Below are positions 16,034 through 60,071 of a stretch of DNA of 64,000 bases, piece after piece; the stretch's first letter is position 1, and each line of letters begins with the position of its first letter. Source of the stretch: Candidatus Aenigmatarchaeota archaeon (lineage in GTDB: Archaea > Aenigmatarchaeota > Aenigmatarchaeia > CG10238-14 > SCSR01); contig JAWCSL010000002.1 of assembly GCA_039090665.1 (NCBI GenBank), forward strand, positions 12,052 through 76,051, written 5' to 3'. The position numbers and the translations under genes are program-made. Under the pieces are notes generated by a model. The model was not told where the DNA came from, did not search any database, and saw nothing but the letters and a program-made list of their open reading frames with translations.

Positions 16034-17629
16034 CTATCTTATAGCTTCTTTTAGTTTTTTCAATATTTCTTCTTTCCCCCTTTCAATAATGTAAAACCCA
16101 AGCTTTGGGCCACTTTCAGAGTTTAAAATTATCTTGTAAAGAAGCTTAAAGAAATTTGGTATTTTTATGTCAAACTTCCTTGCAATTTCAAAAATATTCT
16201 TTTGAATTTCTTCTCCACTTTCTTCCCTTTCAACAATCTTAATAAGTTCAGCAATCGCTGCTTTTTCTTTTTCCCCAATTTTAACTTCGACTTCTTCTTT
16301 TATCTTACCAAAATCTTCATACCATCTTTTAGCAAATTCTATTCTTTTAGCAACTTCTTCTTTTATTTTTCCATTTTCTTCTTTCAACCTTCTATATTCT
16401 TTCAACTTTCTCACAGCAAACTCAACTTGATCTTTTTCAGGCAAAATTTTCACTATTTCAACCATAACTTCAAATGGTACATAAACAGAAGAAGCCTCTT
16501 TTGGTTTAACAACCGCAAGTTCATAAGCTCTTTTGAAATTGTTATCTTTCCTCTCATTTCCAGAACTTTGTAGACCAAAATATATCCTTTCAGCTTTATC
16601 AAATTCATTCCAAATCGATGGAACCATTTGTTTTAAGTTTATGTCTTTTGCTATTGTTAACCTTCCTTGAAACATCCAGTACCTCAAATGCTCAGGCTTC
16701 ATATATTTCAACATATCAGGCACGGTTATAACATTCCCCAAGGATTTAGACATCTTTTGCCCATTCACAAGAAAATGTTCATAAACTAATGGATAAGGAG
16801 GCTTCCATCCTAGAATCTTTACGATTTCTTTTCCAGTATCCCAGCTTCCACCTGCAGCAGCATGCTCTTTTCCAAAAGGCTCACAAGTTGTTTTCAAAAT
16901 AACCCAACGGGCTGGCCACTCGACACGCCAAGTAAGCTTAGCTTTACCATTTAATATTGATGTTTTACCTTTATAGCCACATCCATTAACTTCATATTTT
17001 TTCTTTAGTAAAGTAGCTTCTTCCACACACTCATATTCAACACTAGCCTTCTTTTCTTCATATTTCAAAATTCTTGTGGTGCTTATTTTTCCACATTTTT
17101 CACATATTACATCTACCGGATACCAGTCTTCTGGTAGAGGAGTTGTCCTAAAATTGTTTAGAATTTTAACGATTTTTTCCCTTTTTTTCATAGCAAGTTT
17201 AATGAGATTGTTATACATCCCTTTTTTATACATCTCAATTCCTTTCAAAATCTTAGGTTCAATTAACAAAGTTTTCAATTGTTGAATGAACTTCTCTTCA
17301 AAATGTTCTGCAAAGTTTTTGTGACAACTCCAGAAATCTGGGATAAAACAAACAGGCACACCAAGATAATTTACAAGTTCTTTCGGCAAATCTTTGGGCA
17401 CAGACCTTAGAGGATCCATATCATCAGAAACCCAAACCAATTCAGCAGACACTTTCATTCTCTTAAGGGCAAGATAAACCGCATGTCCTCTCACAACATC
17501 ATTCGCACTGCCTATATGTGGCTCGCCAGACATGCTAGTACCAGTTGTTATAACTTGCTTCTTCACTTTCCATTTTTTTACAAGCTCTTTGGCCACTTGA
17601 TCTGGCCAGAACTCGTATTCTTTTTCCAT
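16034..17629 (-). CDS. lysK: class I lysyl-tRNA synthetase
   Basis: PHIGSANDV (HIGH-like) and KMSKSLGNV motifs; 531 aa. Confidence 0.85.
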   Translation of the reverse strand: MEKEYEFWPDQVAKELVKKWKVKKQVITTGTSMSGEPHIGSANDVVRGHAVYLALKRMKVSAELVWVSDDMDPLRSVPKDLPKELVNYLGVPVCFIPDFWSCHKNFAEHFEEKFIQQLKTLLIEPKILKGIEMYKKGMYNNLIKLAMKKREKIVKILNNFRTTPLPEDWYPVDVICEKCGKISTTRILKYEEKKASVEYECVEEATLLKKKYEVNGCGYKGKTSILNGKAKLTWRVEWPARWVILKTTCEPFGKEHAAAGGSWDTGKEIVKILGWKPPYPLVYEHFLVNGQKMSKSLGNVITVPDMLKYMKPEHLRYWMFQGRLTIAKDINLKQMVPSIWNEFDKAERIYFGLQSSGNERKDNNFKRAYELAVVKPKEASSVYVPFEVMVEIVKILPEKDQVEFAVRKLKEYRRLKEENGKIKEEVAKRIEFAKRWYEDFGKIKEEVEVKIGEKEKAAIAELIKIVEREESGEEIQKNIFEIARKFDIKIPNFFKLLYKIILNSESGPKLGFYIIERGKEEILKKLKEAIR

Positions 17630-17660
17630 ATTTTCAAATATTGGATTAAAGAAATAAAAA

Positions 17661-17780
17661 TGGGCCCGGAGGGATTTGAACCCTCGACCCTCCGCTTTCT
17701 TCTATTAGGAGCACTCCCATATAAGGCGGATGCTCCACCAGGCTAAGCTTCCCTCTACCAGTTAAGGCAGATACGGGCCC
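17661..17780 (-). tRNA. intron-containing tRNA, 120 nt; probably two introns; anticodon possibly UAU (Ile)
   Basis: Perfect acceptor pairing GGGCCCG/CGGGCCC+A, T-arm GAGGG-TTCAAAT-CCCTC, anticodon stem TCCGC/GCGGA enclosing 30 nt (CTTATA|23-nt intron|A), and about 23 extra nt between the acceptor and D-stem. Confidence 0.6.
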
Positions 17781-17856
17781 AGCCTAGATTTTCCGGGCCC
17801 ATTATCCATGTATATTTTAAATTTCATTTTCCTTCCTTTATATCTTAAACCTTAAA

Positions 17857-17926
17857 CATTATAAATAGCAAAAACCTTAAATACTTACAGATAATATAAA
17901 AATTAGTCCATTCTTTGTTTGAGGTG
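17857..17926 (+). promoter_or_regulatory. putative archaeal promoter (TATA-like ttataaat) and SD-like gaggtg upstream of the thermosome gene
   Basis: An AT-rich TATA-like box about 70 nt upstream of the ATG and gaggtg 7 nt before the ATG. Confidence 0.3.
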
Positions 17927-17932
17927 TTAAAT

Positions 17933-19579
17933 ATGACAAATGGAAAGGCTATACTTGGAAGTTTAGGCGGGCAGCCAATACTGATATTGCCAGAAGGAAC
18001 TATTCGTTCCACAGGAAAAGATGCCCAAAAGAACAATATAGCTGCAGCTAAAGCTGTTGCAGATGCAGTCAAAACTACTTTAGGTCCAAAAGGAATGGAT
18101 AAGATGCTCGTAGATTCAATAGGTGACATAGTGATTACAAATGATGGTGTAACAATCCTTGAAGAAATGGATGTGGAGCATCCAGCAGCTAAAATGATGG
18201 TAGAAGTTGCAAAAACTCAGAATGAAGAAGTTGGTGATGGTACAACAACTTCAGTGGTTATTGCAGGTGAGCTTTTGAAGAAAGCTGAAGAGCTTCTTGA
18301 TCAAGATATACATCCCACAATTATCACAAGAGGCTTCAAGATTGCAAAAGATGAAGCCTTAAAAATACTGGAAGAAATAGCAAAGCCAATAGACATAAAT
18401 GACACTGAAACTTTGATGAAAATAGCAATGACTTCAATGTCAGGAAAAAGTGTAGAAAAAGCTTCCCCGAAATTGGCTGAAATAGTTATAGAAGCGGTGA
18501 GAAAAGTAGCAAAGAAAGTCAACGGTAAAATTGAAATTGATACAGATGACATAAGCAGAGTTAAAAAACATGGGGGTTCAGCAGAAGAGACAGAACTAAT
18601 AGAAGGAATAATTATCGATAAAGAAGTTGTACACCCAGCAATGCCAAAGAGAGTTGAAAATGCGAGAATTGCTTTGCTAGATGTTGCTCTTGAAGTCAAA
18701 GAACCAGAAACAGATGCAGAAATAAGGATAACTTCTCCAGAACAGATGCAAGCTTTTCTAGAACAAGAGCAGAGAATGCTTAAAGCTATGGTAGATAAAA
18801 TAGTTAGAGTTAACGCAAATGTAGTGCTTTGTCAAAAAGGAATAGATGATGTTGCTCAGCATTACCTCGCTAAGAAAGGAATTCTTGCTTGCAGAAGAGT
18901 CAAACAGTCTGACATGGAAAAACTAGCAAAGGCGACTGGCGGTAAAATAATTTCAAATCTCGACGACTTAACACCAGAAGACTTAGGTTTTGCAAAATTG
19001 GTTGAAGAAAAGAAAATAGCAGGGGAAGCCATGACTTTTGTTAGGGGATGTAAAGATCCAAAAGCAGTGAGCATTTTGGTGAGGGGAAGCACAGAGCATG
19101 TAGTGGATGAAATTGATAGGAGCATAGAAGATGCTATAGGTGCAGTTGCTTCCGCTCTTGAAATTGGAAAAATTGTTGCAGGAGCAGGTTCGGCAGAAGC
19201 AGAAATTGCAAAGAGGCTGAGAAAATTTGCTGAGAAATTCTCAGGAAGAGAACAGTTAGCAATTCTTGCTTTTGCAGATGCTATGGAAGTAATTCCAAGA
19301 ACTTTGGCAGAGAATGGTGGTTTAGACCCAATTGACACTTTAGTTGAACTTAGGGCTGCTCATGAGCAAGGAAAAGTAAGCTATGGAATAAACTTATATG
19401 AAGGAAAAGTAGCAGATGCTTTCGAAATGGGAGTGATAGAACCATTGAAAGTTAAAACACAAGCAATAAAATCAGCAGCAGAAGCAGCAGAGATGATATT
19501 GAGAATAGATGATGTGATTGCAGCAAGTAAGCTAGAAAAAAGCACATCAACACCACCTTCTACTGAGAGTGAAGAGTAA
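17933..19579 (+). CDS. ths: thermosome (group II chaperonin) subunit
   Basis: [26 protein letters not shown] motifs; the tracked ORF starts at 17915 but MTNGK at 17933 is the likely start. Confidence 0.9.
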
Positions 19580-21110: not shown

Positions 21111-22949
21111 ATGAATCCATTAAAAAATTTTATTAGGGCTCTTGTAGAAGGATATAGAAATCTTTCAATCGAAGAAAGTACACAAAAATCAATTGTTCTT
21201 GATCAACCTCAAATCCAGCCACTCAAAATTCCGGTAGAAGCAGTTCAAAAAATTGTGGTGGAATCTCCTGAACAACCGATCAAAATTCCTATCCAACCTG
21301 TCATCCAACCCATAGTTGTCCCGATAAAAACTGAAGAAGAAAAAGAAGAAAAAGAATTGGTAAAGGAGACAGAAGGTATAGAAATACCAAAATTTTCGCC
21401 AGCACTAGTTAAAACAGGTGAAATAGAAGAAGAGGAAAGAGAAAAAATAACTTTAATTCAACCACTCATACCTAAAAAACCTCAGAAGGATGAACCGATT
21501 CTTGCCTATGCGAAAATTTATTGGGATGAAAAGGAAAACAGGCAAGTGTATCAAGTAGTCGAACCGCCTTTAACCAACAAGCTAAAAGAAATTCTGAGGA
21601 AAGTGAAGGAAATCATGGAGCAGAAACTTGATGTAGAATTTTCAAGACTGAAAGTTTTGGAAGCAAAAGAATATTTGAGAAAACAGATTTCGGATATAGT
21701 CGGATATTTTGGTTTCAAGCTTTCTGAAACTGAAAAGCAGATATTGCAGTACTATATAGAAAGAGATTTCATGGGTTTGGGTAAAATTGAGCCCTTGATG
21801 AATGATGATCAAATAGAAGATATAAGTTGTGATGGAGTTAAAATTCCTGTTTTTGTTTTTCACAGAAATCCAGCTTTAGGATCTTTGATAACAAATGTTG
21901 TTTTCGAAAACGAGGAAGAACTTGATTCTTTTGTGATGAGATTGGCTCAGTTGTGTGGAAAATCAATTTCAATTACAAATCCTTTGCTTTCAGGCTCTCT
22001 TCCAGATGGAAGTAGAGTTCAAGCAACTTTAGCAACAGACATAGCAAGAAGAGGTAGCAACTTCACTATTAGAAAATTCACAGAAAAACCTTTGACACCC
22101 GTTCATCTCCTAGGCTATAAAACAGTTGATATAAAAACTTTAGCATATTTGTGGTTTGTTGTTGATATGGGAAAAAGTGTTTTGGTTTCTGGAGGAACTG
22201 CTTCAGGAAAAACAAGCATGTTGAATGTGCTTTCACTTTTCATAAGACCGGAACAAAAGATAGTTTCAATAGAAGACACACCAGAACTCAAATTACCTCA
22301 TCCACACTGGGTTCCACATGTGGCTAGAACAGCAATTGGAACCGAATTTGGAAGAAAGCCAGGTGAAATAGATCTTTTTGATCTTTTGAAAGAAAGTTTG
22401 AGACAAAGACCAGATTATATAATAGTTGGTGAAGTTAGAGGAAAAGAAGCTTATGTACTTTTCCAAGAAATGGCCACAGGACATCCAAGCCTGGCTACAA
22501 TTCATGCAGAAAATATATCAAAGTTACTCGATAGATTAACCACACCACCCATAAGCTTGCCACCCAGCCTTATTGCAAGCGTTGATGTGATAGTTTTTAT
22601 GGTTTTAACAAGATATAGGAACAAACAAGTTAGAAGAGTTACCGAAATTTTAGAAGTTGTTGGTATAGACGAAAAAACAAAGACACCTATTTTCAACAAA
22701 CTTTTCAAATGGAATCCAGTTTCAGATAGTTTTGATGTTTGTGGTAAAAGCTTTTTGTTGAAAAAAATCTCGGAGAGTACTGGATTGAGTGAGAAAGAAA
22801 TCAAAGAAGAGTTGGAAAGAAGGATGCTAGTTTTGGATTGGCTACAAACAAACAATATTTTGGAATATGAAGATTTCTGTCAAATCATAAACTCTTATTA
22901 TAAGAATCCTTCCAGGCTTTTAGCTGCCATCAAGGGAGGACTTGGATGA
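21111..22949 (+). CDS. FlaI/TadA/GspE-family secretion ATPase with a Pro/Ile/Gln-rich N-terminal extension
   Basis: Walker A VSGGTASGKTSMLNV, Asp/His boxes and the GEVRG motif; residues about 30-140 are IPV/QP repeats. Confidence 0.85.
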   Translation: MNPLKNFIRALVEGYRNLSIEESTQKSIVLDQPQIQPLKIPVEAVQKIVVESPEQPIKIPIQPVIQPIVVPIKTEEEKEEKELVKETEGIEIPKFSPALVKTGEIEEEEREKITLIQPLIPKKPQKDEPILAYAKIYWDEKENRQVYQVVEPPLTNKLKEILRKVKEIMEQKLDVEFSRLKVLEAKEYLRKQISDIVGYFGFKLSETEKQILQYYIERDFMGLGKIEPLMNDDQIEDISCDGVKIPVFVFHRNPALGSLITNVVFENEEELDSFVMRLAQLCGKSISITNPLLSGSLPDGSRVQATLATDIARRGSNFTIRKFTEKPLTPVHLLGYKTVDIKTLAYLWFVVDMGKSVLVSGGTASGKTSMLNVLSLFIRPEQKIVSIEDTPELKLPHPHWVPHVARTAIGTEFGRKPGEIDLFDLLKESLRQRPDYIIVGEVRGKEAYVLFQEMATGHPSLATIHAENISKLLDRLTTPPISLPPSLIASVDVIVFMVLTRYRNKQVRRVTEILEVVGIDEKTKTPIFNKLFKWNPVSDSFDVCGKSFLLKKISESTGLSEKEIKEELERRMLVLDWLQTNNILEYEDFCQIINSYYKNPSRLLAAIKGGLG

Positions 22950-23815
22950 AATTTGGTAAGCTCTCTATGAGATTTTTTTATCCACTTACTGATATGATTT
23001 TACCTTATTTTTCAGAGTTAAAATCTGATTTAAAGAGGGCTGGTATAAAACTTTCAGTTCAAGAGTTCTTAAGCCAAGGAATCTTTTTAACGGTTTTAGT
23101 TTTCATTTTAGGATTACCAATTTTTTCAGTGATTTTTTCTTTTTTTCTTAAGAGTTTTTTATTCGGGTTTTTATCTTCAATTACAGCTTGCTTCTTCATT
23201 TTATCAATTTTCTTTATCGCTTATGTGAATTATCCCAAAATATTGATTGGCCAAAAGACAAAAAAGATTGATGATCAAATTTCTTTTGCTGCGCTTCATC
23301 TTTCCACTCTTGCAAGTGCAAAATTATCTCTAGATAAAATTTTGGAAATTTTTTCTGAATTTAGTGGCTATGGTGAAATTACAGAAGAAATTTCAAAGAT
23401 ACGAACAGATATGAAAATGTTTGGTCTTGATGTCAACACTGCACTTGAAAGAGCTGTGGAGAGATGTCCTTCAAAAAATTTAAAAGAAATTTTATGGGGA
23501 ATTCTTTCCACAAACCTAAGTGGTGGAGAGATTGATGTTTATCTTAGAGAAAAAGCCAGAAGTTTAATGTCAGAATACAGGATGAAGCTTCGTGATTTTT
23601 CTCACCAGCTTGGAATTTATTTGGAAATATACATAACGGCAGTAATCCTTGGAGCGGTTTTCTTCCTCATTTTAACTTCGATAGTTGCAGGTATAGCTGG
23701 AACAGGCGGACAAATACTTTTCCTTCAGTTCTTCCTGATCTTTATATTTTTACCAGCAATTTCTGCAATTTTCATTTATTTGATTAGAGTTGCAACCCCA
23801 GGGGGATTTAGTTGA
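22946..23815 (+). CDS. FlaJ/TadC-like pilus platform membrane protein (1 of 2)
   Basis: Polytopic, with a cytoplasmic helical domain between TM segments; 4-nt overlaps with neighbours. Confidence 0.65.
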   Translation: MKFGKLSMRFFYPLTDMILPYFSELKSDLKRAGIKLSVQEFLSQGIFLTVLVFILGLPIFSVIFSFFLKSFLFGFLSSITACFFILSIFFIAYVNYPKILIGQKTKKIDDQISFAALHLSTLASAKLSLDKILEIFSEFSGYGEITEEISKIRTDMKMFGLDVNTALERAVERCPSKNLKEILWGILSTNLSGGEIDVYLREKARSLMSEYRMKLRDFSHQLGIYLEIYITAVILGAVFFLILTSIVAGIAGTGGQILFLQFFLIFIFLPAISAIFIYLIRVATPGGFS

Positions 23816-24753
23816 AGTTCAAGCTTAGTATAGAACAGAGAATTGTTTTGATAGCAATTTCAATAACAGGTTTTTTGATACTGTTGGGAATTTTAAGTCC
23901 GGACGAAAAAACAAGGATAGGTGTGATTTCAAACGCTTTCATTCTCCTAGCTTTTATGCTAATTCTTCCCTTTGTTTTCATAAGATATCAAAGAGAAAAG
24001 GCTATAAGGGAAATGGAAGAAAAAATGCCACTTTTTTTGAGGGATTTGGTTGAGTCTATTAGTTCTGGAGTACCTTTTCACCAAGCAATAGTCATGAGTA
24101 GCAAACTAGATTATGGTGAGCTTTCAAGAGAAATAAAGAAAATGGCAAATCAAATCTCTTGGGGGATGCCTGTGAATAAAGTTTTAGATCAATTCATAGA
24201 AAGAGTTAAATCAAGCAAAAAACTTTTTATGGCTTTAAAAATTTTGAGAGAATCTTACTTGACAGGAGGTGAAATAATTTCCACTTTAAATTCAGTAGCA
24301 GACAATTTAACACAACTGAATGAAATTGAAAAAGAAAGGAAAAGTATATTGAATCAGTATGTGGTATTGATTTATGCCATAGTTTTTGTTTTTGTGGCAA
24401 TTCTCGTGGCAATCAATAAACTCATGTTACCAATATTTCAAGCAACACAAGCTCCAGGTGGCGAGATTTTAGGATTCAAGAGTCCTTGTGAAGACAATCC
24501 AACTTTCGTTTGTGTTGTTTTTTCTCTTCCAGCTCAATATATTTTTGGTGTTGCTAATCCCACTAGTATAGGAGGCTATTACATTTCAATATTTTTTTAC
24601 ATGAGTACAATAATTGCAATAGCTTGTGGTATGGTTATAGGGGAAATAACAGAAAGGTCAATTTTTTCAGGACTTAAACACAGCTTAATTTTAACGATAG
24701 CTGTTTGGGGAGTCTTGCTATTACTAAAAGTCTTGAATTTCATTGGTGTTTGA
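23812..24753 (+). CDS. FlaJ/TadC-like pilus platform membrane protein (2 of 2)
   Basis: Same architecture as the previous gene; a paired arrangement like EpdJ/EpdK. Confidence 0.65.
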   Translation: MKFKLSIEQRIVLIAISITGFLILLGILSPDEKTRIGVISNAFILLAFMLILPFVFIRYQREKAIREMEEKMPLFLRDLVESISSGVPFHQAIVMSSKLDYGELSREIKKMANQISWGMPVNKVLDQFIERVKSSKKLFMALKILRESYLTGGEIISTLNSVADNLTQLNEIEKERKSILNQYVVLIYAIVFVFVAILVAINKLMLPIFQATQAPGGEILGFKSPCEDNPTFVCVVFSLPAQYIFGVANPTSIGGYYISIFFYMSTIIAIACGMVIGEITERSIFSGLKHSLILTIAVWGVLLLLKVLNFIGV

Positions 24754-29165: not shown

Positions 29166-32100
29166 ATGAAAAAATGGCTTGTCTTTATATTTTTAACATT
29201 ATTTTTGCTACCTTCTGTAGGTTTTGCAGTTGATTGTGATTATGATTGTAGACATCGTGGTGGAATAGGAGAATGTACAGGTTGGGCATATTCTTCCTGT
29301 TCATCAGGTTATATAGAAGGAAAGGGAAGTTGTAAGGGTTGGTGGGTTTTTACACCAAAATGCTGTTGTCGACCTGTGATTACCGTATCACATTCACCGA
29401 CTCAAGTAACTAATAAAGATAAAGTTACATATACTGCTAAACTCTTGGTTAGTATGCCCATAACACAATTATCAATTATAGTAAAAAGTGACGCTGGAAG
29501 CAGTATGAATTCTTGCACGTCTTCCGAGTGCTCTTTAACAGCCGGGCCATATAAGGCAGGCACTACTGTTATTTACCAAGCTATTGTAAATCCTGTAATG
29601 GGAGGTTCAATCTTTACAGAGGAAAAATCTTTCACAGTAGGGGCAACGAAAGAATGTGATCGTAATAAGTGGAGTGAATGTGTTGTAGACTGTAAAAACA
29701 AATGTGGGATTTTAAAAGGAACAGAGAGAAATGAATGTGGTGAAGAAAGAGGATGTAGTAAAGACTGTGGAAGCTGCCCATCTGGTTATGAATGTAGAAA
29801 TAATAGATGTGAAAAGATTGGGGAAGAGGCTCCTATAACCACATGTGCTAGAAGCAATCCTAGTATTAGCGTTAACCCTTCCTCTTATACAGCAACTGCA
29901 GGTACTGAAAAAGAATACGAAGTGACAGTTAAAAATAATAATCAGAATTGTAAGGATAGTGTTTTTATCCTTGAAGCTTCTTGTCCACCAGGCTGGGATT
30001 GTTCTTGGTCTCCATCTTCACTTACAATATCTTCTGGATCGTCTGCAAAATCCACACTAAAGGTTAGATCTTCTGCAAAAGAATCCCCAGGATTATTTAG
30101 AATAAAAATTGTTGTTTCAGACAAAGAGTCATCTGTTTATAGAGCATCAACTTATGTAGACTATATGGTTTTTTCAGGACAACAACCTTCCTTAGGAAGA
30201 GAAGAAGGAGAAGCCCTCTCAGTGACTACCACAATCCCATCTTGCCCAATCTGTTCCCAACCATCTCAACTCCCCTGTCAATGTGGTAATAGTAGAGTTG
30301 ACTGTGCTTACGGCTATTGTTATTGTTCTGCCAAAGGCCAGGTTCATTACTCTATACAGGATTGTGAAAAGGCTAGCAATTATCTAACCCTCTCTTTAAG
30401 CCCGAGCAAATCAACTTATGCTCCAAATGAAGAAATAACAGTCAACGTTGAGGGTTATGCTTTTAACCAAATAGGTGGAATTTACATTTATGATGTTCAA
30501 GGATCTTCTACTTCGACAACCTATTGTGGAGAATTTCAAGCAGCAAATAGGCCGGTAAAATGTAGCCAAAAAATAAGCTTCCCTTCAGAAGCATCTAGGA
30601 TTTGTGTGAAGGCAAAGATGCATGTTTACTACTACAACTATGATGTATACTCGAATGAAGTTTGCTTCCAAGTCAAAACCCCCACCCCAGATACTACCCC
30701 ACCTTCTACCTATATCTCACCCAATGGCAATTCATGGACAAATAAAGATATTAGCTTCACTTTAAGTTGTAGCGACTCTAATTCAGGTTGCTCCGAAACA
30801 AGATATTCTATCATCGATTCAACTGACAATTGTCCTTACTATGAGAACTTAGCTAATAAAGGAATGCAAGGCACAATTGCTTGTCCATCATCTCAAGTTT
30901 GTAAAAAAGTAGTTTGTTATGCAAGCAAAGACAATGCGGGCAACATTGAAGTAATAAGAAGAAGCAATATTTTCTACATAGACAAAATACCGCCCACAAT
31001 TGACATAAAAATTTCAGAATCTTTACCAACAATCAATACTAGAGTTGCTTTCATTGCTACAGGAAGCGATGCAGATTCTGGAGTAGATTACATAGAAATA
31101 TTTGTAGATGATATTTCACGCTATAAATGTGCTTCTACTTCGTGTACTTATTTGGGTGAGCCTTATCCAGTGGGAACTCACACATATTTTGGGGCAATTA
31201 AAGATAAAGCAGGGAATTATGTTCAAACGTCTAAAAAGACTTTTACAGTTATGCAATCACCTCCTTGTACAGGCTCAATTTCCCTGAAATTATCACCAAA
31301 TCCTGCTCAAACAAGCTCAAAAGTGACAGCCACAGTCTCAGGATTAGTTTACTGTGATAATAGAGAAGTTAAAATTATTAAACCCGATAGAACAACACTT
31401 ACTTGTAAAGTTTCAGGTTCAGGTTGTTCAGTAAGTTTTGACGCTCCTAGCACTGAAGGAGAATATGTTTATTATGCTGGAGTTGATATTAACGGAGATA
31501 TGGATACTTCGGATGAAGGTGAGACTTCCTCTGCAGTTTTGAAGGTAAGTAAGCCAACTCAAATCCCATCTTGCCCAATCTGTTCCCAACCATCTCAACT
31601 CCCCTGTCAATGTGGTAATAGTAGAGTTGACTGTGCTTACGGCTATTGTTATTGTTCTGCCAAAGGCCAGGTTCATTACTCTATACAGGATTGTGAAAAG
31701 GCTAGCAATTATCTAACCCTCTCTTTAAGCCCGAGCAAATCAACTTATGCTCCAAATGAAGAAATAACAGTCAACGTTGAGGGTTATGCTTTTAACCAAA
31801 TAGGTGGAATTTACATTTATGATGTTCAAGGATCTTCTACTTCGACAACCTATTGTGGAGAATTTCAAGCAGCAAATAGGCCGGTAAAATGTAGCCAAAA
31901 AATAAGCTTCCCTTCAGAAGCATCTAGGATTTGTGTGAAGGCAAAGATGCATGTTTACTACTACAACTATGATGTATACTCGAATGAAGTTTGCTTCCAA
32001 GTCAAAACCCCCACCCCAGATACTACTCTTATTCAAACATCTCTTTCCCAATCAGTTTATCCGCCAAGCCCCCAACCCCAAGGCACCACAGTAATTTTTC

Positions 32101-32594
32101 TGTGTGACTATACTGCCAACAACCAAGATGTTACAGGGGCAACTTGTTATGTGAACATAGATGGAAAATCCTATTCAACAACTTATGGACAATATGTAAG
32201 TGGTGGCTATTATGCTTATGGTTATTCCACATCTTCCCTTTCAGCAGGCACTCACTCTTGGTATTGCAGCTGCTCTAAATCAGGCTACCAAAGCCAAGTA
32301 GGAAGCACACAAAGTTACACAATTACCTCAGTCTCTACAACCACCACAACCTCACCGCCTTACACACCTTGTCCTTCAGGCTATAGCTGCGTTCCAAGCT
32401 ACGGTGTTTCAAACTTTTGTCAAGGTTGTGGGTATAGTGGAATGAGGTGTGATTGTCAAGGTCAAACAAGAGCTTGCAATCAAAACGGTGACAACTACTG
32501 TTGCAGATGTGTCAGATATAGTTCTCAACCTGTGCCAGCCGGAATTTTAAGCAGCTTGTGGGACTTCATCAAAAGCATCTTTGGTATACAATAG
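29166..32594 (+). CDS. giant secreted cysteine-rich surface protein (1142 aa) with an internal tandem duplication
   Basis: Signal peptide MKKWLVFIFLTLFLLPSVGFA; many Cys clusters (CGSCPSGYECRNNRCEK, C-terminal CPSGYSCVP...CDCQGQTRAC); Thr-rich linkers. Confidence 0.75.
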   Translation: MKKWLVFIFLTLFLLPSVGFAVDCDYDCRHRGGIGECTGWAYSSCSSGYIEGKGSCKGWWVFTPKCCCRPVITVSHSPTQVTNKDKVTYTAKLLVSMPITQLSIIVKSDAGSSMNSCTSSECSLTAGPYKAGTTVIYQAIVNPVMGGSIFTEEKSFTVGATKECDRNKWSECVVDCKNKCGILKGTERNECGEERGCSKDCGSCPSGYECRNNRCEKIGEEAPITTCARSNPSISVNPSSYTATAGTEKEYEVTVKNNNQNCKDSVFILEASCPPGWDCSWSPSSLTISSGSSAKSTLKVRSSAKESPGLFRIKIVVSDKESSVYRASTYVDYMVFSGQQPSLGREEGEALSVTTTIPSCPICSQPSQLPCQCGNSRVDCAYGYCYCSAKGQVHYSIQDCEKASNYLTLSLSPSKSTYAPNEEITVNVEGYAFNQIGGIYIYDVQGSSTSTTYCGEFQAANRPVKCSQKISFPSEASRICVKAKMHVYYYNYDVYSNEVCFQVKTPTPDTTPPSTYISPNGNSWTNKDISFTLSCSDSNSGCSETRYSIIDSTDNCPYYENLANKGMQGTIACPSSQVCKKVVCYASKDNAGNIEVIRRSNIFYIDKIPPTIDIKISESLPTINTRVAFIATGSDADSGVDYIEIFVDDISRYKCASTSCTYLGEPYPVGTHTYFGAIKDKAGNYVQTSKKTFTVMQSPPCTGSISLKLSPNPAQTSSKVTATVSGLVYCDNREVKIIKPDRTTLTCKVSGSGCSVSFDAPSTEGEYVYYAGVDINGDMDTSDEGETSSAVLKVSKPTQIPSCPICSQPSQLPCQCGNSRVDCAYGYCYCSAKGQVHYSIQDCEKASNYLTLSLSPSKSTYAPNEEITVNVEGYAFNQIGGIYIYDVQGSSTSTTYCGEFQAANRPVKCSQKISFPSEASRICVKAKMHVYYYNYDVYSNEVCFQVKTPTPDTTLIQTSLSQSVYPPSPQPQGTTVIFLCDYTANNQDVTGATCYVNIDGKSYSTTYGQYVSGGYYAYGYSTSSLSAGTHSWYCSCSKSGYQSQVGSTQSYTITSVSTTTTTSPPYTPCPSGYSCVPSYGVSNFCQGCGYSGMRCDCQGQTRACNQNGDNYCCRCVRYSSQPVPAGILSSLWDFIKSIFGIQ
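30233..30697 (+). repeat. direct repeat copy 1 (465 bp, 100% identical to 31562..32026)
   Basis: Base-by-base comparison of the two segments; offset 1329 nt (443 codons, in frame). Confidence 0.95.
31562..32026 (+). repeat. direct repeat copy 2 (465 bp)
   Basis: Identical to 30233..30697. Confidence 0.95.
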
Positions 32595-39886: not shown

Positions 39887-40474
39887 ATGGAGAAGTCGAT
39901 AGAGACCATAAAAGGTGAGAAAAATCTTAAAAAATTTGTCAAAAAACTTGAACCAAAAACTGTGGTTTTGTTCATCATTGATGCAAAAAAATATCATAAG
40001 ATACACCCAAAGCTCCTCCAAACTATAATAAAAGAAAAGTGTTTTGCTGGAATTTACATAACAATAAACAAACCTTACAGTACTTTGATAAAATACCTTA
40101 AAGAAAATAAAATAAACACAGACAATATTTTCTTTATTGATGCTATATCAAAGAGTGTTGGTGGAGAAATGAAGATGACAAAAGACTGTTTATTTATTCC
40201 ATCTCCTTCTCAACTAACTGATTTGGCAATAGCTCTAACACAAGCTCTAGAAAGTATGGAACATAAGGAAAACAAATTTATTTTTTTAGATTCTCTTTCA
40301 ACTTTGTTGATTTATAACTCTTTTGAAGTTGCGGCCAAGTTTGTTCATTTCGTAATCTCTAGGCTTAGATTGTTTGGGCTTGTTGGAATGATAATCTCAA
40401 TAGAAAAGCAAATAGACGAGAGAATGTTAAATATTTTAATAGAGATGTGTGATAAGGTGGTGGAAGTTAAATGA
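39887..40474 (+). CDS. degenerate KaiC/RecA-fold protein lacking a P-loop
   Basis: Retains the RecA-family FLDSLSTLL (Walker-B-like) but has no GxxxxGK[ST]; 195 aa; 4-nt overlap with the next gene. Confidence 0.4.
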   Translation: MEKSIETIKGEKNLKKFVKKLEPKTVVLFIIDAKKYHKIHPKLLQTIIKEKCFAGIYITINKPYSTLIKYLKENKINTDNIFFIDAISKSVGGEMKMTKDCLFIPSPSQLTDLAIALTQALESMEHKENKFIFLDSLSTLLIYNSFEVAAKFVHFVISRLRLFGLVGMIISIEKQIDERMLNILIEMCDKVVEVK

Positions 40475-40821
40475 TTGAAATCTTCTTTCAGATCTTGAGC
40501 TTGCTCAACTCCATTTTAGCTTTCATAACAGTCATTATTTTTGCTCGTTCTAACATTAAATTCACGAAGGGTGAGCTACAAGAAATAATCAATTATTTTG
40601 TTTGGGGAACAATATTCATGTTTGGTGGAATGATAGCTCAACTTGAAGTCGAGTTTTTAAATTTAGCTGGCACACCGATAGACATGATAAAATATTTCCT
40701 GTTTTTAGGAGGTTTCTCATACTACTTGCTTGCTTCCTTTAAGATTCATAAGATGTCAAAAGTTTTAGGCTTCGCTTCAGGAGAAATGCCTAAGAAACTT
40801 AAAAAAATCCTTAAATCTTAA
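40471..40821 (+). CDS. small membrane protein (3 TM, 116 aa)
   Basis: Hydrophobic segments only. Confidence 0.45.
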   Translation: MIEIFFQILSLLNSILAFITVIIFARSNIKFTKGELQEIINYFVWGTIFMFGGMIAQLEVEFLNLAGTPIDMIKYFLFLGGFSYYLLASFKIHKMSKVLGFASGEMPKKLKKILKS

Positions 40822-40846
40822 TTTCAAGGAACAGTTAATTTAGATT

Positions 40847-41257
40847 ATGAAAGCTCAAGTTGCACTTGAATATTTGATGATAATTTCTTTTGCTTTAATG
40901 GTTTTGTTACCTTATGCTCTTCATCTTCAAACAGTTTCTCAAAATTTGAGAGAAGATAACAATTTAGCTATAGCTTCAAATTCTCTACAAAAAATAGGTC
41001 AGGCAGCAGATTGGGTATTTTCTCAAGGCGAACCTGCAAAAATTACAATTTTAGTCCAAATTCCTGCTAATGTTGAAGAGATTTCTTTTGCCGGAAAAAT
41101 GATGAAATGGAAAGTTAGAACTAGTGCTGGTTTATCAGAAATTTACTACATTTCTTCAGCCAACTTGACGGGAAGTTTGCCTACCACTCCAGGCTACTAT
41201 AATTTATTGATTCAAGCTATGGGGAATGGGGTGAAAATAAGTGTCAGCCCAAGTTAG
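40847..41257 (+). CDS. pilin-like protein (class III signal peptide)
   Basis: MKAQVALEYLMIISFALMVLL. Confidence 0.6.
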   Translation: MKAQVALEYLMIISFALMVLLPYALHLQTVSQNLREDNNLAIASNSLQKIGQAADWVFSQGEPAKITILVQIPANVEEISFAGKMMKWKVRTSAGLSEIYYISSANLTGSLPTTPGYYNLLIQAMGNGVKISVSPS

Positions 41258-41630
41258 CCTAGAATTCATTTCTTTACTTTCACTTCTTTTCATCTTTTTA
41301 TTTCTCACAATCTATCACAGCTCCAATCTTTATATTCAAACAAACAGAGCAAAAGTATTAAAAGAAGCTCAAACAATAAGCGATCAAATTGCTTCTGAAA
41401 TAAACTTGGCTCTTAAAGCAGGGAGTGGCTATTCAAGAATTTTCACTATCCCCCAAAAAATTTCTAATGCAATAGATTACAACATAACAGTAAAGGATTA
41501 TCTTGTGATTTTGAGTTGGAATAATGGTTTTGTCCAATCCACAATTTTGACAAGAAACATAAGTGGCGAAATCTTGAAAGGTGAGAACTTGATAAGAAAT
41601 TTAAATGGTGTAGTTTATGTTAACCAATAA
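41241..41630 (+). CDS. pilin-like protein
   Basis: MSAQVSLEFISLLSLLFIFLFL. Confidence 0.55.
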   Translation: MSAQVSLEFISLLSLLFIFLFLTIYHSSNLYIQTNRAKVLKEAQTISDQIASEINLALKAGSGYSRIFTIPQKISNAIDYNITVKDYLVILSWNNGFVQSTILTRNISGEILKGENLIRNLNGVVYVNQ

Positions 41631-42099
41631 AGCTCAAGTTGTCACTTATGATTTTTTCATAGCTTTAGCTATTTTCTTTTTAGTTATGGGTCTGGTGATG
41701 AGTATTTGGTATTATACAGTGATTCAAGCGGAAGAAAGTATGGAAAAGAGATTGGCTTATAATAACTTGCTTTCTGCATCTCAAGTTTGGTTCAAAGAGG
41801 GATTCCCAAAATATTGGGATGCTGAGAATGTAGTTGAGCTAGGCTTGTCGAATGATGGAAAAATAAATGAGACAAAAATAGAAATGCTTAAAAATTCTGT
41901 TGGGTATTCTAAAGCAAGCCTTCTGCTTAATCTTGGTAATTTTAACTTTTGTTATGAAGTTTATGACAAATCCGGAAATTTAATTTTTCGCTTTCCTCAA
42001 AATTTAGATCTTAGTTCAGCAAGAAACATATACAAGATAGAAAGAATTGGAATACTGAATGAGCAACCTGTGAAAGTGAGGACTTTGATATGGAATTGA
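41617..42099 (+). CDS. pilin-like protein
   Basis: MLTNKAQVVTYDFFIALAIFFLVMGLV. Confidence 0.55.
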   Translation: MLTNKAQVVTYDFFIALAIFFLVMGLVMSIWYYTVIQAEESMEKRLAYNNLLSASQVWFKEGFPKYWDAENVVELGLSNDGKINETKIEMLKNSVGYSKASLLLNLGNFNFCYEVYDKSGNLIFRFPQNLDLSSARNIYKIERIGILNEQPVKVRTLIWN

Positions 42100-44024: not shown

Positions 44025-44986
44025 AAGGAATATTTTTCAGTTCGATGATAATTTTCTTAATAACTTGCTTATTCATATTTTTTTCTATTCAGAGATCTAT
44101 GCTATCTTTTTATTCCTCTCAAAGGGCAATTGAAAACAGGGTAGAAGCCATGATCAAATTTTATGAAAGTGTAGTTTATGATTCAAGAAAATCTATGGAA
44201 ATTACAGCACAAAGGGCAACTTGCTCTGCAATAAATTATGTAGTCACAACAGGTTCTCCTTTACAATCTTCAAATGAAACTATAGCAGAGCTCATACTTC
44301 AAGGTACAATTAATTCTGAGCCTCAAGGGCTAATGGAAGCATCTACCGTGAAAGATTGGGAAGATAGTATAGAATACTTGGGAACTCTTCAAGGGTTTAG
44401 GACTAGTGTTGATATAAGAGATTTGTTGATAGAGCCTGAAGATAGTTATCATCTCTCCATTTCTTACACTATTTTTGTAGAGCTTTATGATGATAACATC
44501 AAAACAAACCTTACAAAAAACTCAAGAGAAAAAATAATTATGAGCATAGAAAATATGGAAGATCCTCTTTATCCACTGAACACTTTAGGCAGAATAGTAA
44601 ATATAATAAGACCAAGTCCACATTGGCTCAACTACTCTAGTGAAGACACTTCAAATTTGAAGGACGATTTAGAAAATTCTTACTATCATCCTAGCTTATA
44701 TGGAGCAAGTTTTCTGGATAGGCTTGAAGGCAAGTTCTTCGTTCAAGAAAAATACTTCAAACCAAACCCAATCGGACTGGAAAGTTTTGTCAATAAAGAC
44801 AAAATCCTCAGTGCAGGCTTGCCGATAGACGCTTACGCTACAAATATAGATTATCTTTACTTCTCAAAGAGTGGTGTAGATGCTTATTCTATTTCAGGAA
44901 TGCCTTCTAATTTTAGATTAGATAATGAGACGAGTCTAGAAGGGAAGACCCACCTTCAAATATACAATGTCACGGTGATTGAATGA
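44021..44986 (+). CDS. pilus-associated protein with pilin-like N-terminus (about 321 aa)
   Basis: Likely start MKGIFFSSMIIFLITCLFIFF at 44021 (4-nt overlap, atga); the tracked ORF 43973 start is less plausible. Confidence 0.5.
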   Translation: MKGIFFSSMIIFLITCLFIFFSIQRSMLSFYSSQRAIENRVEAMIKFYESVVYDSRKSMEITAQRATCSAINYVVTTGSPLQSSNETIAELILQGTINSEPQGLMEASTVKDWEDSIEYLGTLQGFRTSVDIRDLLIEPEDSYHLSISYTIFVELYDDNIKTNLTKNSREKIIMSIENMEDPLYPLNTLGRIVNIIRPSPHWLNYSSEDTSNLKDDLENSYYHPSLYGASFLDRLEGKFFVQEKYFKPNPIGLESFVNKDKILSAGLPIDAYATNIDYLYFSKSGVDAYSISGMPSNFRLDNETSLEGKTHLQIYNVTVIE

Positions 44987-45720: not shown

Positions 45721-45730
45721 AAGAAAAAAG

Positions 45731-60066: not shown

Positions 60067-60071
60067 AACTG

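What the first reader, a model, noticed from the sequence alone, without database searches (positions are those of the whole stretch)
17661..17780. 120-nt tRNA gene with about 46 extra nucleotides: likely two introns and a UAU anticodon
The acceptor (GGGCCCG/CGGGCCC) and T-arm are textbook. The anticodon stem TCCGC/GCGGA encloses CTTATA|TGGGAGTGCTCCTAATAGAAGAA|A, a canonical 37/38 intron of 23 nt leaving the loop CUUAUAA with anticodon UAU. A further 23 nt or so sits between the acceptor and the D-stem GCTT...GAGC, a non-canonical intron position. This inserted segment, CCTTAACTGGTAGAG, resembles the real D-loop GCTTAGCCTGGTGGAGC, hinting at an origin by local duplication. A tRNA-Ile(UAU) is the agmatidine-independent solution for AUA decoding reported in a few archaeal lineages.
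Basis: partly seen in the sequence, partly recalled or inferred. Interest (0 to 1): 0.6.

Follow-up and report, generated by a model that had tools for sequence, protein, structure and literature searches.

The report
Twice-interrupted tRNA-Ile(UAU) with newborn intron
This is a real archaeal isoleucine tRNA gene (anticodon UAU) interrupted twice, and its second, unusually placed intron looks recently gained: it appears to be copied from the tRNA's own spliced anticodon arm, giving a rare snapshot of how such introns arise.

Summary

- **Intron and orthologue evidence.** Thirteen syntenic orthologues all keep the CTTATA loop and a 20-23 nt insertion at 37/38, giving anticodon UAU. Only two non-sister lineages (the window type and the L011 type) also carry the D-proximal insertion. 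Removing 17771..17749 (23 nt, position 9/10) restores exactly the orthologues' GGGCCCGUA-GCUU.
- **Splice motif.** The junctions form a 3-4-3 bulge-helix-bulge, cut at UA|U and AA|G.
The feature extends upstream to 17800. A second copy of the acceptor 5' strand (GGGCCCGG) and a leader segment (CUAGGCU) are present only in the insertion-bearing alleles. The leader segment supplies 7 of the 10 bp of the BHB outer helix.
- **Origin of the new intron.** It is not D-loop-like. It is a diverged copy of the tRNA's own spliced anticodon arm plus variable loop (0 of 10000 shuffles reach the alignment score).
- **Already known.** tRNA-Ile(UAU) in DPANN and multi-intron archaeal tRNAs are both described.
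- **New and unproven.** The intron position, its self-derived origin and the leader module are not in the sources I could read. Splicing, 5'-end choice and TiaS absence remain untested.

The parts
17793..17800 (-). Copy 1: upstream duplicate of the acceptor 5' strand (GGGCCCGG). It is followed by GA rather than UA. It is perfectly complementary to the 3' acceptor strand plus C65.
   Evidence: It is present only in the insertion-bearing alleles (window and L011 types) and absent from 11 insertion-free orthologues. In the partition-function model it occupies the 3' acceptor strand (P about 1.0) and frees copy 2 for the BHB.
17781..17792 (-). Leader spacer (AAAAU, variable between lineages) plus leader arm CUAGGCU. 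The AGGCU part is conserved. The arm pairs with D-arm nucleotides 17744..17738 as the distal part of the BHB outer helix.
   Evidence: The outer helix is 10 bp in the window and 8 bp in L011; the spacer has diverged while AGGCU is identical.
17772..17780 (-). Exon 1: tRNA positions 1-9, GGGCCCGUA (copy 2 of the acceptor strand plus U8 and A9).
   Evidence: It is identical to the 5' end of insertion-free orthologues (GGGCCYGTA|GCTTAG). U8 and A9 are invariant in alignment A1.
17749..17771 (-). Intron 1: non-canonical, position 9/10 (8/9 is equally compatible with the sequence), 23 nt, UCUGCCUUAACUGGUAGAGGGAA. Its hairpin CUGCC/GGUAG is the inner BHB helix. AGGG is the 3' strand of the central helix. 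The bulges are UA|U and AA|G.
   Evidence: It is the best 3-4-3 motif in the precursor, and 7 of 2000 shuffles reach its score. It is absent from 11 orthologues. The homologous 22-nt intron in L011 has a changed hairpin (G:U to G:C, different loop). It resembles spliced tRNA positions 27-48.
17720..17748 (-). Exon 2: positions 10-37 (D-arm GCUU-AGCCUGGUG-GAGC, A26, anticodon stem 5' strand UCCGC, loop CUUAUA). The anticodon U34 A35 U36 lies at 17723..17721.
17697..17719 (-). Intron 2: canonical 37/38, 23 nt, UGGGAGUGCUCCUAAUAGAAGAA. The BHB is relaxed: the 3' bulge AA|A abuts the anticodon stem, and the central helix is CUU/AAG plus an A.G mismatch.
   Evidence: A homologous 20-23 nt intron is present in all 13 orthologues, and the hBHBh' motif is strict in L004 and L021.
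17661..17696 (-). Exon 3: positions 38-73 (A38, GCGGA, variable loop GGGUC, T-arm GAGGG-UUCAAAU-CCCUC, acceptor 3' strand CGGGCCC, discriminator A). No CCA is encoded.
   Evidence: The T-stem differs from L011 by a compensatory G:C to A:U change.
17656..17660 (-). T5 run immediately after A73: a likely archaeal transcription stop (inferred). The LysRS start codon follows at 17629.
   Evidence: Sequence and ORF list. The terminator role is an inference from general knowledge of archaeal oligo-T termination.

Best explanation
A functional single-locus gene for tRNA-Ile(UAU), the AUA decoder, in a thermophilic Aenigmatarchaeote. It is interrupted by two endonuclease-type (bulge-helix-bulge) introns.

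- **Intron 2 (17719..17697)** is the ancestral 37/38 intron shared by the whole clade.
- **Intron 1 (17771..17749, position 9/10)** is a later acquisition. It is a diverged copy of the tRNA's own spliced anticodon arm plus variable loop (positions 27-48), inserted between A9 and G10.

Proposed splice motif for intron 1:
- C4-C6 of the acceptor strand pair with the intron's GGG. A G7.A mismatch makes up the fourth position of the central helix.
- U8-A9|U and A-A|G form the two 3-nt bulges.
- The copied anticodon stem is the inner helix.
- G1-G3 plus the upstream leader CUAGGCU pair with the D-arm (CUUAGCCUGG) as the outer helix.

Cleavage and ligation give GGGCCCGUA-GCUU, identical to intron-free orthologues. 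RNase P (or an equivalent activity) then removes a leader of 20 nt or more.

That leader contains a second copy of the acceptor strand. This copy is either the relic of the original 5' end or, more speculatively, a surrogate partner that holds the 3' acceptor strand so that the real 5' strand can adopt the BHB fold at high temperature.

**Shown:** gene anatomy, orthology, restoration of the orthologous sequence, BHB-compatible geometry, sequence origin of the intron, and patchy phylogenetic distribution.

**Inferred:** actual splicing, the order of processing, the transcription start, the role of copy 1, and the route of origin (RNA intermediate or mobile element).
For: **Orthology**
- The same thermosome | tRNA | LysRS synteny is found in 13 distinct relatives. 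All have CTTATA plus a 20-23 nt insertion at 37/38.
- Eleven of them lack the 5' insertions and read GGGCCYGTA|GCTTAG.

**BHB for intron 1**
- It is the top-ranked 3-4-3 motif: outer helix 10 bp, central helix 3 Watson-Crick pairs plus G.A, inner helix 5 bp, cut at UA|U and AA|G.
- Its score is 18, against a shuffle mean of 11.3 (sd 1.6); 7 of 2000 shuffles reach it.
- The same geometry is present in L011, with an altered inner hairpin.

**Anticodon**
- In 10 precursors the 3-nt bulge abuts the anticodon stem and the 4-position helix fixes the 5' cut after A37.
- The BHB is strict in L004 and L021.
- ARAGORN calls tRNA-Ile(tat) after both removals.

**Function**
- The cloverleaf is 100% paired, with 7 pairs changed on both sides.
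- The window and L011 exons differ only by one compensatory T-stem pair, while the introns, spacer and trailer have diverged.
- AUA makes up 361 of 802 Ile codons in 15 window ORFs.
- The only match to the tRNA body in the L012 MAG is the interrupted copy.

**Origin of intron 1**
- L011 intron 1 is 16/20 identical (19/24 with flanks) to spliced positions 26-49 and has the same 22-nt length. No shuffle reaches its score (0/5000 and 0/10000).
- For the window intron, P = 0.026.
- Derived changes are shared by both lineages, including a compensatory C29:G41 to U:A.

**Copy 2 is the exon**
- It keeps the invariant U8 and A9, whereas copy 1 is followed by GA in both lineages.

**Leader role (in silico)**
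- At 70 C the outer-helix probability is 0.9 (window) and 0.7 (L011) with copy 1.
- Without copy 1 it is 0.03 and 0.05.

**Capacity for non-canonical splicing in the phylum**
- L006 tRNA-Met carries a strict BHB intron at 59/60.
- DPANN endonucleases with broadened specificity are described in PMC5829648 and PMC3239211.
Against: - No RNA data exist. Splicing, the transcription start and the 5' end are all inferred.
- The central helix has only three Watson-Crick pairs plus a G.A mismatch. Its pairs have low probability in the nearest-neighbour model (0.04-0.23).
- After in-silico splicing, the model still prefers copy 1 paired with the 3' strand plus a leader:D-arm hairpin over the cloverleaf (-54.2 versus -32.9 kcal/mol at 37 C). 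Leader removal at copy 2 would therefore need refolding.
- The A/T-rich upstream sequence does not allow the transcription start to be placed, so copy 1 may not be transcribed in the window lineage.
- L019 shows that a U6.G67 acceptor pair occurs naturally. Pairing quality therefore does not exclude copy 1 as the acceptor strand.
- Only two sequence variants of the interrupted allele exist, so covariation support for the BHB helices is thin.
- The host endonuclease, RNase P, TiaS and tRNA-Ile(CAU) could not be examined; none is in the window.
Confidence: 0.75

Rival explanations
1. Copy 1 (17800..17794) is the true acceptor 5' strand. Everything from about 17791 to 17749 is then removed, either as one 43-nt intron at 9/10 or as two introns flanking a UA micro-exon. 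The mature tRNA would begin at 17800. In the one-intron version it would carry G8.
For: - The minimum-free-energy fold of the long precursor pairs copy 1, not copy 2, with the 3' strand (12 bp).
- The upstream context of copy 1 in L011 (TTAATA|GGGCCTG) matches the tRNA start of its sister L010, so copy 1 sits where the ancestral 5' end was.
- ARAGORN accepts the copy1-GA-G10 construct as a tRNA.
- A U6.G67 pair occurs naturally in L019.
Against: - A mature G8 would break the invariant U8 seen in all orthologues.
- The 3' bulge AA|G has its symmetric BHB partner at UA|U next to copy 2. With copy 1 the motif has an outer helix of only 3-4 bp and no stacked inner helix (analysis).
- The three-piece version needs a 2-nt exon. 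Its GGCC/GGCC core has no flanking helices in the window, and the small inner helix seen in L011 is not conserved.
Confidence: 0.1
2. The 5' module is the scar of a mobile-element integration of the kind proposed for Caldiarchaeum tRNA-Thr. An element's attP carried a tRNA-Ile 5' segment with an extra intron and recombined with the host gene. This left the host's own 5' end (copy 1) as an inert direct repeat, and the element was later deleted down to a 12-13 nt remnant. Copy 1 has no function. This rival concerns the origin and the role of copy 1; it is compatible with the two-intron reading.
For: - The layout matches the published model: a 5' tRNA fragment, an intervening sequence, then a reconstituted tRNA with a new intron (PMC3293823).
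- The interrupted allele occurs in two non-sister lineages whose nearest relatives lack it.
- Both lineages are present in the same metagenome, ERZ27245628.
- L011's copy 1 is host-type (GGGCCTG), while its copy 2 and 3' strand are GGGCCCG/CGGGCCC.
Against: - No integrase or element lies between or near the repeats (12-13 nt spacer; Pfam of 58 window ORFs).
- No donor was found in IMG/VR, phage or plasmid collections.
- The repeat is only 7-9 nt, against 27 nt in Caldiarchaeum.
- The model does not explain why the intron is a copy of the spliced anticodon arm.
Confidence: 0.3
3. The gene is a decaying pseudogene, disabled by 5' insertions. AUA would then be read by another tRNA elsewhere in the genome.
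For: - The Rfam score drops from 57-65 bits to 31-32 bits in the interrupted alleles.
- ARAGORN finds no gene in the genomic form.
- The rest of the genome is not available to check for a second copy.
Against: - The exons of two lineages that diverged long ago are identical except for one compensatory T-stem pair, while neighbouring non-exon sequence has diverged.
- Removing the insertion restores the orthologous sequence to the nucleotide.
- The syntenic position is unchanged.
- AUA is the commonest Ile codon.
- No second body copy exists in the L012 MAG.
Confidence: 0.05
4. The anticodon-loop intron sits at 34/35, so the tRNA reads UGA-anticodon (Ser) rather than UAU. This is ARAGORN's solution.
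For: ARAGORN with -i reports 'tRNA-Ser (tga) i(37,23)' once the 5' insertion is removed.
Against: - The 3-nt bulge abutting the anticodon stem fixes the 3' cut before A38 in all 10 precursors.
- L004 and L021 have a strict 4-bp central helix with cuts at UA|U and AC|A.
- The 34/35 placement gives C37 in L004 and L021.
- The variable loop is 5 nt, not Ser-like.
- Rfam places the insertion after CUUAUA.
Confidence: 0.02

Closest known systems
Multi-intron archaeal pre-tRNAs with non-canonical BHB introns (Thermoproteales, Nanoarchaeum, ARMAN-2; Marck & Grosjean 2003 and Sugahara 2007-2009 as reviewed in PMC4090602 and PMC4033280; ARMAN-2 in PMC3239211)
   Same: Both have a canonical 37/38 intron plus a second intron elsewhere in the body. 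Each is bounded by a 3-4-3 or relaxed bulge-helix-bulge, and removal restores a standard cloverleaf. Both occur in thermophilic or DPANN hosts, and standard tRNA finders miss them.
   Different: - Position 9/10 (or 8/9) is not among the positions listed in the review I could read (3/4, 20/21, 22/23, 25/26, 29/30, 30/31, 45/46, 53/54, 56/57, 59/60 'etc.'). I could not check the primary tables.
- The outer BHB helix is built largely from 5' leader sequence.
- An extra copy of the acceptor strand lies upstream.
tRNA-Ile(UAU) of TiaS-less archaea (Nanoarchaeum equitans, Korarchaeum cryptofilum, ARMAN lineages; PMC6000648, PMC3239211)
   Same: Both have a genomically encoded UAU anticodon and a canonical 37/38 intron; ARMAN-2 pre-tRNA-Ile(UAU) has a 25-nt one. 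Both are DPANN hosts, and AUA decoding presumably does not use agmatidine.
   Different: Absence of tiaS and of tRNA-Ile(CAU) could not be tested for this genome. This gene also carries a second intron and the leader module.
Caldiarchaeum subterraneum tRNA-Thr(GGU) locus heterogeneity (tRNA-Thr-I, -II, -F; PMC3293823)
   Same: Closely related genomes differ by one extra non-canonical intron. [quoted passage not shown] Both have been interpreted as a snapshot of intron gain.
   Different: - In Caldiarchaeum a 1.8-kb element with a recombinase separates the repeats, and the repeat is 27 nt. Here 12-13 nt separate 7-9 nt repeats, and no element or donor was found.
- The self-derived (spliced anticodon arm) sequence of the intron has no counterpart in that study.
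Intron transposition among tRNAs in Thermoproteales (Fujishima et al. 2010, as summarised in PMC4033280 and PMC4390854)
   Same: Both concern non-canonical introns regarded as late, mobile additions, with related intron sequences in different places.
   Different: Here the source sequence is exonic: the mature anticodon arm plus variable loop of the same tRNA, not another intron.
Split and permuted tRNAs (N. equitans, C. maquilingensis, T. pendens; PMC3218864)
   Same: In both, leader sequences outside the mature tRNA supply one strand of the helix that flanks the BHB.
   Different: Here all exons are colinear on one transcript unit. No trans-splicing or circular intermediate is required.

Membership tests
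Archaeal BHB (EndA-spliced) tRNA intron, canonical 37/38 | The insertion lies between positions 37 and 38, and its removal leaves a 7-nt anticodon loop with U33 and a purine at 37. | tested here: met
   CUUAUA|23 nt|A gives CUUAUAA. The same holds in all 10 distinct precursors.
Archaeal BHB (EndA-spliced) tRNA intron, canonical 37/38 | Two 3-nt bulges separated by a 4-bp helix carry the splice sites (strict hBHBh'), or a relaxed hBH/HBh' form does. | tested here: met
   The window has the relaxed form: the 3' bulge AA|A abuts the stem, the central helix has 3 bp plus A.G, and there is no directly stacked inner helix. L004 and L021 have the strict form.
Archaeal non-canonical BHB tRNA intron | Removal restores a canonical cloverleaf. 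| tested here: met
   Removing 17771..17749 gives GGGCCCGUA-GCUU, the same as 11 insertion-free syntenic orthologues. ARAGORN then recognises the gene. The cloverleaf is 100% paired.
Archaeal non-canonical BHB tRNA intron | A BHB or relaxed BHB is present at the exon-intron junctions. | tested here: met
   Bulges UA|U and AA|G; central helix CCC/GGG plus G.A; outer helix 10 bp; inner helix 5 bp. 7 of 2000 shuffles reach the score. The motif is conserved in L011. The central helix is not fully Watson-Crick.
Archaeal non-canonical BHB tRNA intron | The host has a splicing endonuclease able to cut outside the anticodon loop or at relaxed motifs. | not testable with these tools
Indirect support comes from a strict BHB intron at 59/60 in an Aenigmatarchaeota tRNA-Met (L006) and from DPANN EndAs with the L3 loop (PMC5829648).
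Archaeal non-canonical BHB tRNA intron | The spliced RNA is observed. | not testable with these tools
   No transcriptome data are available.
tRNA-Ile(UAU), agmatidine-independent AUA decoder | The anticodon is UAU in the mature sequence. | tested here: met
   U34 A35 U36 lie at 17723..17721 and are conserved in 13 orthologues.
tRNA-Ile(UAU), agmatidine-independent AUA decoder | The genome lacks tiaS and tRNA-Ile(CAU). | not testable with these tools
   Only a 64-kb window and short loci are held. No TiaS-type domain was found among 58 window ORFs, but that says nothing about the rest of the genome.
tRNA-Ile(UAU), agmatidine-independent AUA decoder | The tRNA is charged with isoleucine (IleRS identity set). 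| tested here: inconclusive
   It is a class I tRNA with a 5-nt variable loop, A73 and A37, which is consistent with Ile. No identity-element test was possible.
Split or permuted tRNA | The exons are encoded in separate loci or in permuted order. | tested here: not met
   All three exons are colinear within 120 nt.
Mobile-element integration scar (Caldiarchaeum tRNA-Thr type) | [quoted passage not shown] | tested here: met
   GGGCCCG occurs at 17800 and at 17780; L011 has GGGCCTG and GGGCCCG. The repeat is only 7-9 nt.
Mobile-element integration scar (Caldiarchaeum tRNA-Thr type) | An integrase or mobile element lies between or next to the repeats, or a donor element carries the attP. | tested here: not met
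   The spacer is 12-13 nt. No integrase domain is present in the window. No donor was found in the viral, phage or plasmid collections.

The most novel reading that the evidence does not exclude
A non-canonical tRNA intron was created when a copy of the tRNA's own spliced anticodon arm plus variable loop was inserted at position 9/10. This implies an RNA or cDNA intermediate.

The insertion became spliceable because the acceptor CCC and the copied variable-loop GGG happen to form a BHB core. A leader-encoded second acceptor strand then acts as a cis chaperone: it sequesters the 3' acceptor strand so that the BHB can form at 70-85 C.

The whole module has since moved laterally between co-resident DPANN lineages.
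Probability: 0.2. Interest if true: 0.8.

Novelty: new variant of a known kind. Interest (0 to 1): 0.6.

Why it matters
How archaeal tRNA genes acquire non-canonical introns is an open question. [quoted passage not shown]

This locus offers a second snapshot, and a cleaner one:
- Eleven intron-free and two intron-bearing orthologues sit in identical synteny.
- The intron's source sequence is identifiable: the spliced anticodon arm of the same tRNA.
- It shows how a BHB can arise from pre-existing complementarity.

It also suggests a testable idea: leader sequence, including a decoy acceptor strand, may be needed to fold a splice site that competes with the acceptor stem.

Practically, it shows that an essential AUA decoder is invisible to ARAGORN and barely passes Rfam in these DPANN genomes. 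tRNA-complement and 'missing tRNA' statements for such MAGs can therefore be wrong.

Tried and rejected
The local alignment scores 8, with P = 0.08, and the similarity is not seen in L011. Rejected in favour of an anticodon-arm origin.
2. **Similarity of the leader spacers to any part of the tRNA.** I considered the idea that copy 1 + spacer + copy 2 is a degenerate acceptor/T-arm minihelix. The similarity is not significant (P = 0.43 and 0.97), so I dropped it.
3. **A third intron between the two GGGCCCG copies, using the palindromic GGCC/GGCC as central helix.** It has no flanking helices in the window, and the small inner helix in L011 is not conserved.
4. **BHB-like motifs that would cut exactly at the mature 5' end (17781|17780).** Their partners lie inside intron 1 or intron 2. 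They are either not conserved in L011 or would excise exon 1. I treat them as chance.
5. **Donor element.**
   - Two IMG/VR hits to junction 18-19-mers are chance matches (46-52% GC, no tRNA).
   - The tRNA body pattern has no viral hit.
   - The phage and plasmid collections gave no match.
6. **Promoter and transcription-start inference from upstream A/T boxes.** The boxes sit at inconsistent distances across 16 tRNA upstream regions, so I drew no conclusion.
7. **MAFFT alignment of the two interrupted precursors.** It mis-registers copy 1 by one position, so I tabulated the helices directly.
8. **Sub-threshold Rfam hit HPnc0260 on the plus strand (17567..17694).** It scores 38 bits against a gathering score of 59. 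It only mirrors the antisense of the T-arm and acceptor, so I ignored it.
9. **Sugahara 2007 primary paper (PMC1852824).** It is not held. I therefore could not verify whether position 9/10 has been reported before.
Full report
**What is at the coordinates**

Read on the minus strand, 17780..17661 is:

GGGCCCG UA | UCUGCCUUAACUGGUAGAGGGAA | GCUU AGCCUGGUG GAGC A UCCGC CUUAUA | UGGGAGUGCUCCUAAUAGAAGAA | A GCGGA GGGUC GAGGG UUCAAAU CCCUC CGGGCCC A

A T5 run follows.

- Rfam's tRNA model matches only 17753..17661, at 32.3 bits (gathering 29). It leaves the 5' acceptor strand out and skips a 24-nt insertion after CUUAUA.
- ARAGORN finds nothing.
- The window is archaeal, at about 33% G+C. The neighbours are class I LysRS (16034..17629, minus strand), a thermosome subunit (17915..19579, plus strand), an AlaX-like protein and Cdc6/Orc1.
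- The LysRS is 100% identical to a protein of Candidatus Aenigmatarchaeota MAGs.
- Three independent assemblies carry an identical 303-nt thermosome-LysRS spacer (L007-L009), so the structure is not an assembly artefact.

**Comparative evidence**

I used the flanking LysRS gene, one scan of species-representative genomes and one metagenome scan. Together they recovered the syntenic orthologue of this tRNA in 13 distinct relatives.

- All keep CTTATA followed by a 20-23 nt insertion and A-GCGGA (or GCGAT).
- Eleven read GGGCCYGTA|GCTTAG, with nothing between A9 and G10 and no G+C-rich element upstream.
- Only the window type and the L011 type have the D-proximal insertion. The L011 type (= L012, L017, L018) has LysRS 80% identical to the window.
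- Removing 17771..17749 from the window therefore regenerates the orthologous 5' sequence exactly, with the invariant U8 and A9 (alignment A1). Placement at 8/9 is equally compatible with the sequence.
- The spliced sequences of 8 distinct orthologues fit the cloverleaf with 100% of cells paired. Seven pairs change on both sides, and the covariation score is 0.33 against 0.10 in shuffles.
- Insertion-free orthologues score 57-65 bits with Rfam, and the interrupted ones 31-32 bits.

**Splice motifs**

I scanned the precursor for every arrangement in which each strand carries a 4-nt helix strand followed by a 3-nt bulge cut after its second nucleotide. The D-proximal insertion ranked first.

| Element | Intron 1 motif in the window |
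|---|---|
| 5' strand of central helix | CCCG (17777..17774) |
| 5' bulge | UA\|U (cut 17772\|17771) |
| 3' strand of central helix | AGGG |
| 3' bulge | AA\|G (cut 17749\|17748) |
| Inner helix | CUGCC/GGUAG |
| Outer helix | 10 bp, 17787..17778 with 17747..17738 |

- The central helix has three Watson-Crick pairs and a G.A mismatch.
- The motif score is 18, against 11.3 +/- 1.6 in shuffles; 7 of 2000 shuffles reach it.
- L011 has the same core and bulges, an 8-bp outer helix and a different inner hairpin (G:U becomes G:C, and the loop differs).

For the anticodon-loop intron, all 10 distinct precursors share the same layout:
- a 3-nt bulge (AA|A or AC|A) directly abutting the anticodon stem;
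- C32-U34 paired to the intron;
- the 5' cut at UA|U.

This gives the loop CUUAUAA. L004 and L021 have the strict 4-bp form, and the others a relaxed form.

ARAGORN's own intron heuristic places this intron at 34/35 and calls Ser(tga). That placement contradicts the bulge positions. It also gives C37 in L004 and L021, and would mean a Ser tRNA with a 5-nt variable loop. I reject it. With both introns removed, ARAGORN calls tRNA-Ile(tat).

Twenty nucleotides upstream of the acceptor lies a second GGGCCCGG (17800..17793). It is followed by a variable spacer and then CUAGGCU.

- L011 has the same layout (GGGCCUGG, a different spacer, AGGCU), and no insertion-free orthologue has it.
- The leader arm supplies 7 of the 10 bp of the BHB outer helix.
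- Copy 1 is perfectly complementary to the 3' acceptor strand, and the MFE fold of the long precursor pairs them.

Partition-function calculations at 70 C gave these outer-helix probabilities:

| Precursor | With copy 1 | Copy 1 removed |
|---|---|---|
| Window | about 0.9 | 0.03 |
| L011 | about 0.7 | 0.05 |

Without copy 1, the real 5' strand pairs with the 3' strand instead. Copy 1 could therefore act as a surrogate acceptor strand that lets the splice site fold at high temperature. This is an inference only, for four reasons:
- The transcription start cannot be placed from sequence.
- The BHB could also form co-transcriptionally, before the 3' strand is made.
- Copy 1 may simply be the relic of the original 5' end.
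- The same model predicts that the spliced RNA remains trapped in the copy 1 fold.

That copy 2 is the exon rests on two observations. It retains U8 and A9, whereas copy 1 is followed by GA in both lineages. The BHB partner bulge also lies next to copy 2.

**Origin of the new intron**

Instead, the L011 intron (UCUGC-UUUAAAA-GCAGA-GGGAA, 22 nt) aligns with the tRNA's own spliced anticodon arm plus variable loop (UCCGC-CUUAUAA-GCGGA-GGGUC, 22 nt).
- The match is 16/20, or 19/24 with the flanking A and G.
- No shuffle reaches the score (0/5000 and 0/10000).
- The window intron matches at its 5' end (UCUGCCUUA, 8/9) and its 3' end (GAGGG), with P = 0.026.
- Both introns share derived changes: a compensatory C29:G41 to U:A, U36 to A, and UC to AA. 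They therefore descend from one ancestral insertion.

Every orthologue has the 37/38 intron, so the template lacked an intron that the gene has. This points to a spliced RNA (a cDNA-type intermediate) or to an unseen intron-free paralogue. I could not distinguish between these.

The BHB core then arises from complementarity between acceptor C4-C6 and the copied G44-G46.

**Distribution**

Trees of LysRS and of the thermosome agree. The window groups with the insertion-free L001, L013 and L002. L011 groups with the insertion-free L010.

A single-origin module in two non-sister lineages means either lateral spread or several precise losses. Lateral spread is plausible because both lineages occur in metagenome ERZ27245628.

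The layout recalls the Caldiarchaeum tRNA-Thr model of intron gain through an integrating element: a 5' tRNA fragment as a direct repeat upstream of a copy that has gained an intron (PMC3293823). However, no element, integrase or donor was found here.

**Is it functional?**

- The exons of the two interrupted alleles differ only by one compensatory T-stem pair, whereas the introns, spacer and trailer have diverged.
- AUA is the commonest Ile codon in the window (361 of 802).
- The only match to the tRNA body in the L012 MAG is the interrupted copy.
- Non-canonical splicing occurs in this phylum. L006 carries an initiator-like tRNA-Met with a strict BHB intron at 59/60, which both finders also miss.

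**Relation to what is known**

- tRNA-Ile(UAU) with a 37/38 intron, in genomes lacking TiaS and tRNA-Ile(CAU), is described for ARMAN/DPANN, Nanoarchaeum and Korarchaeum (PMC3239211, PMC6000648).
- Multi-intron tRNAs, relaxed BHBs and broadened DPANN endonucleases are also described (PMC4090602, PMC5829648).
- The gene is therefore a member of known kinds.
- Three things are not in the sources I could read: an intron at 9/10, a BHB whose outer helix is mostly leader accompanied by a duplicate acceptor strand, and an intron demonstrably derived from the tRNA's own mature anticodon arm.
- TiaS, tRNA-Ile(CAU), EndA and RNase P could not be examined, because none is in the window.

**Verdict**

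- The D-loop origin is rejected.
- The feature extends to 17800.
- Confidence in the two-intron tRNA-Ile(UAU) reading is about 0.75.
- I rate the self-copy origin as likely.
- The decoy role of copy 1 and an RNA intermediate are speculative.

Noticed in passing
L006 7097-7192 (+): An initiator-like tRNA-Met(CAU) (A1:U72, acceptor AGCGGGG/CCCCGCU) is interrupted at 59/60 in the T-loop by a 21-nt intron, UGGAGAUUAAGCUCCUGAAAU. The motif is a strict 3-4-3 BHB: central helix UUCA/UGAA, bulges AA|U and AU|U. Rfam and ARAGORN both miss it until it is spliced in silico.
   Followed up: yes
window 17781-17800 (-) and L011 2830-2849 (+): A second copy of the acceptor 5' strand plus the AGGCU leader arm is present only in the alleles that carry the 9/10 intron. 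The palindromic GGGCCC also allows a copy 1:copy 2 hairpin of 8 bp.
   Followed up: yes
L011/L012/L017/L018 versus window; L001, L013, L002, L010: The intron-bearing allele occurs in two non-sister lineages, and each lineage's closest relatives lack it. Both lineages are in metagenome ERZ27245628. L011's 37/38 intron and acceptor resemble L015/L016 more than its sister L010, which suggests recombination at this tRNA locus.
   Followed up: partly
L019 1150-1395 (+): An insertion-free orthologue has a natural U6.G67 wobble in the acceptor stem (GGGCCTG / CGGGCCC) and the window-type T-stem GAGGG/CCCTC.
   Followed up: no
L006 1479-1586 and 7208-7294 (+); window 60071-60146 (-): The two other tRNAs in L006 carry anticodon-loop insertions of about 33 and 15 nt. 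The window's tRNA-Arg(CCU) has none (65.6 bits). Introns at 37/38 seem common in this clade.
   Followed up: partly
window 17567-17694 (+): A sub-threshold Rfam hit to HPnc0260 (38 bits, gathering 59) only reflects the antisense of the tRNA T-arm and acceptor. It is not a real feature.
   Followed up: yes
window 21111-24753 (+), 46173-49551 (-), 62940-63980 (-): There are three separate loci with T2SSE-type ATPases, two of them with paired T2SSF-type membrane proteins (type IV pilus or archaellum-like systems). That is a notable number for 64 kb of a small DPANN genome.
   Followed up: no
window 29166-32594 (+), 56275-59157 (-), 40471-46141: Two very large ORFs (1142 and 960 aa) have essentially no Pfam match. 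A run of about eight consecutive ORFs (40471-46141) also has no Pfam hit. These may be lineage-specific surface or host-interaction proteins.
   Followed up: no
window 17629-17661 (-): The tRNA is co-oriented with LysRS and ends 31 nt upstream of its start codon. Only a T5 run lies between them, so read-through co-transcription of tRNA-Ile and lysS is conceivable.
   Followed up: no
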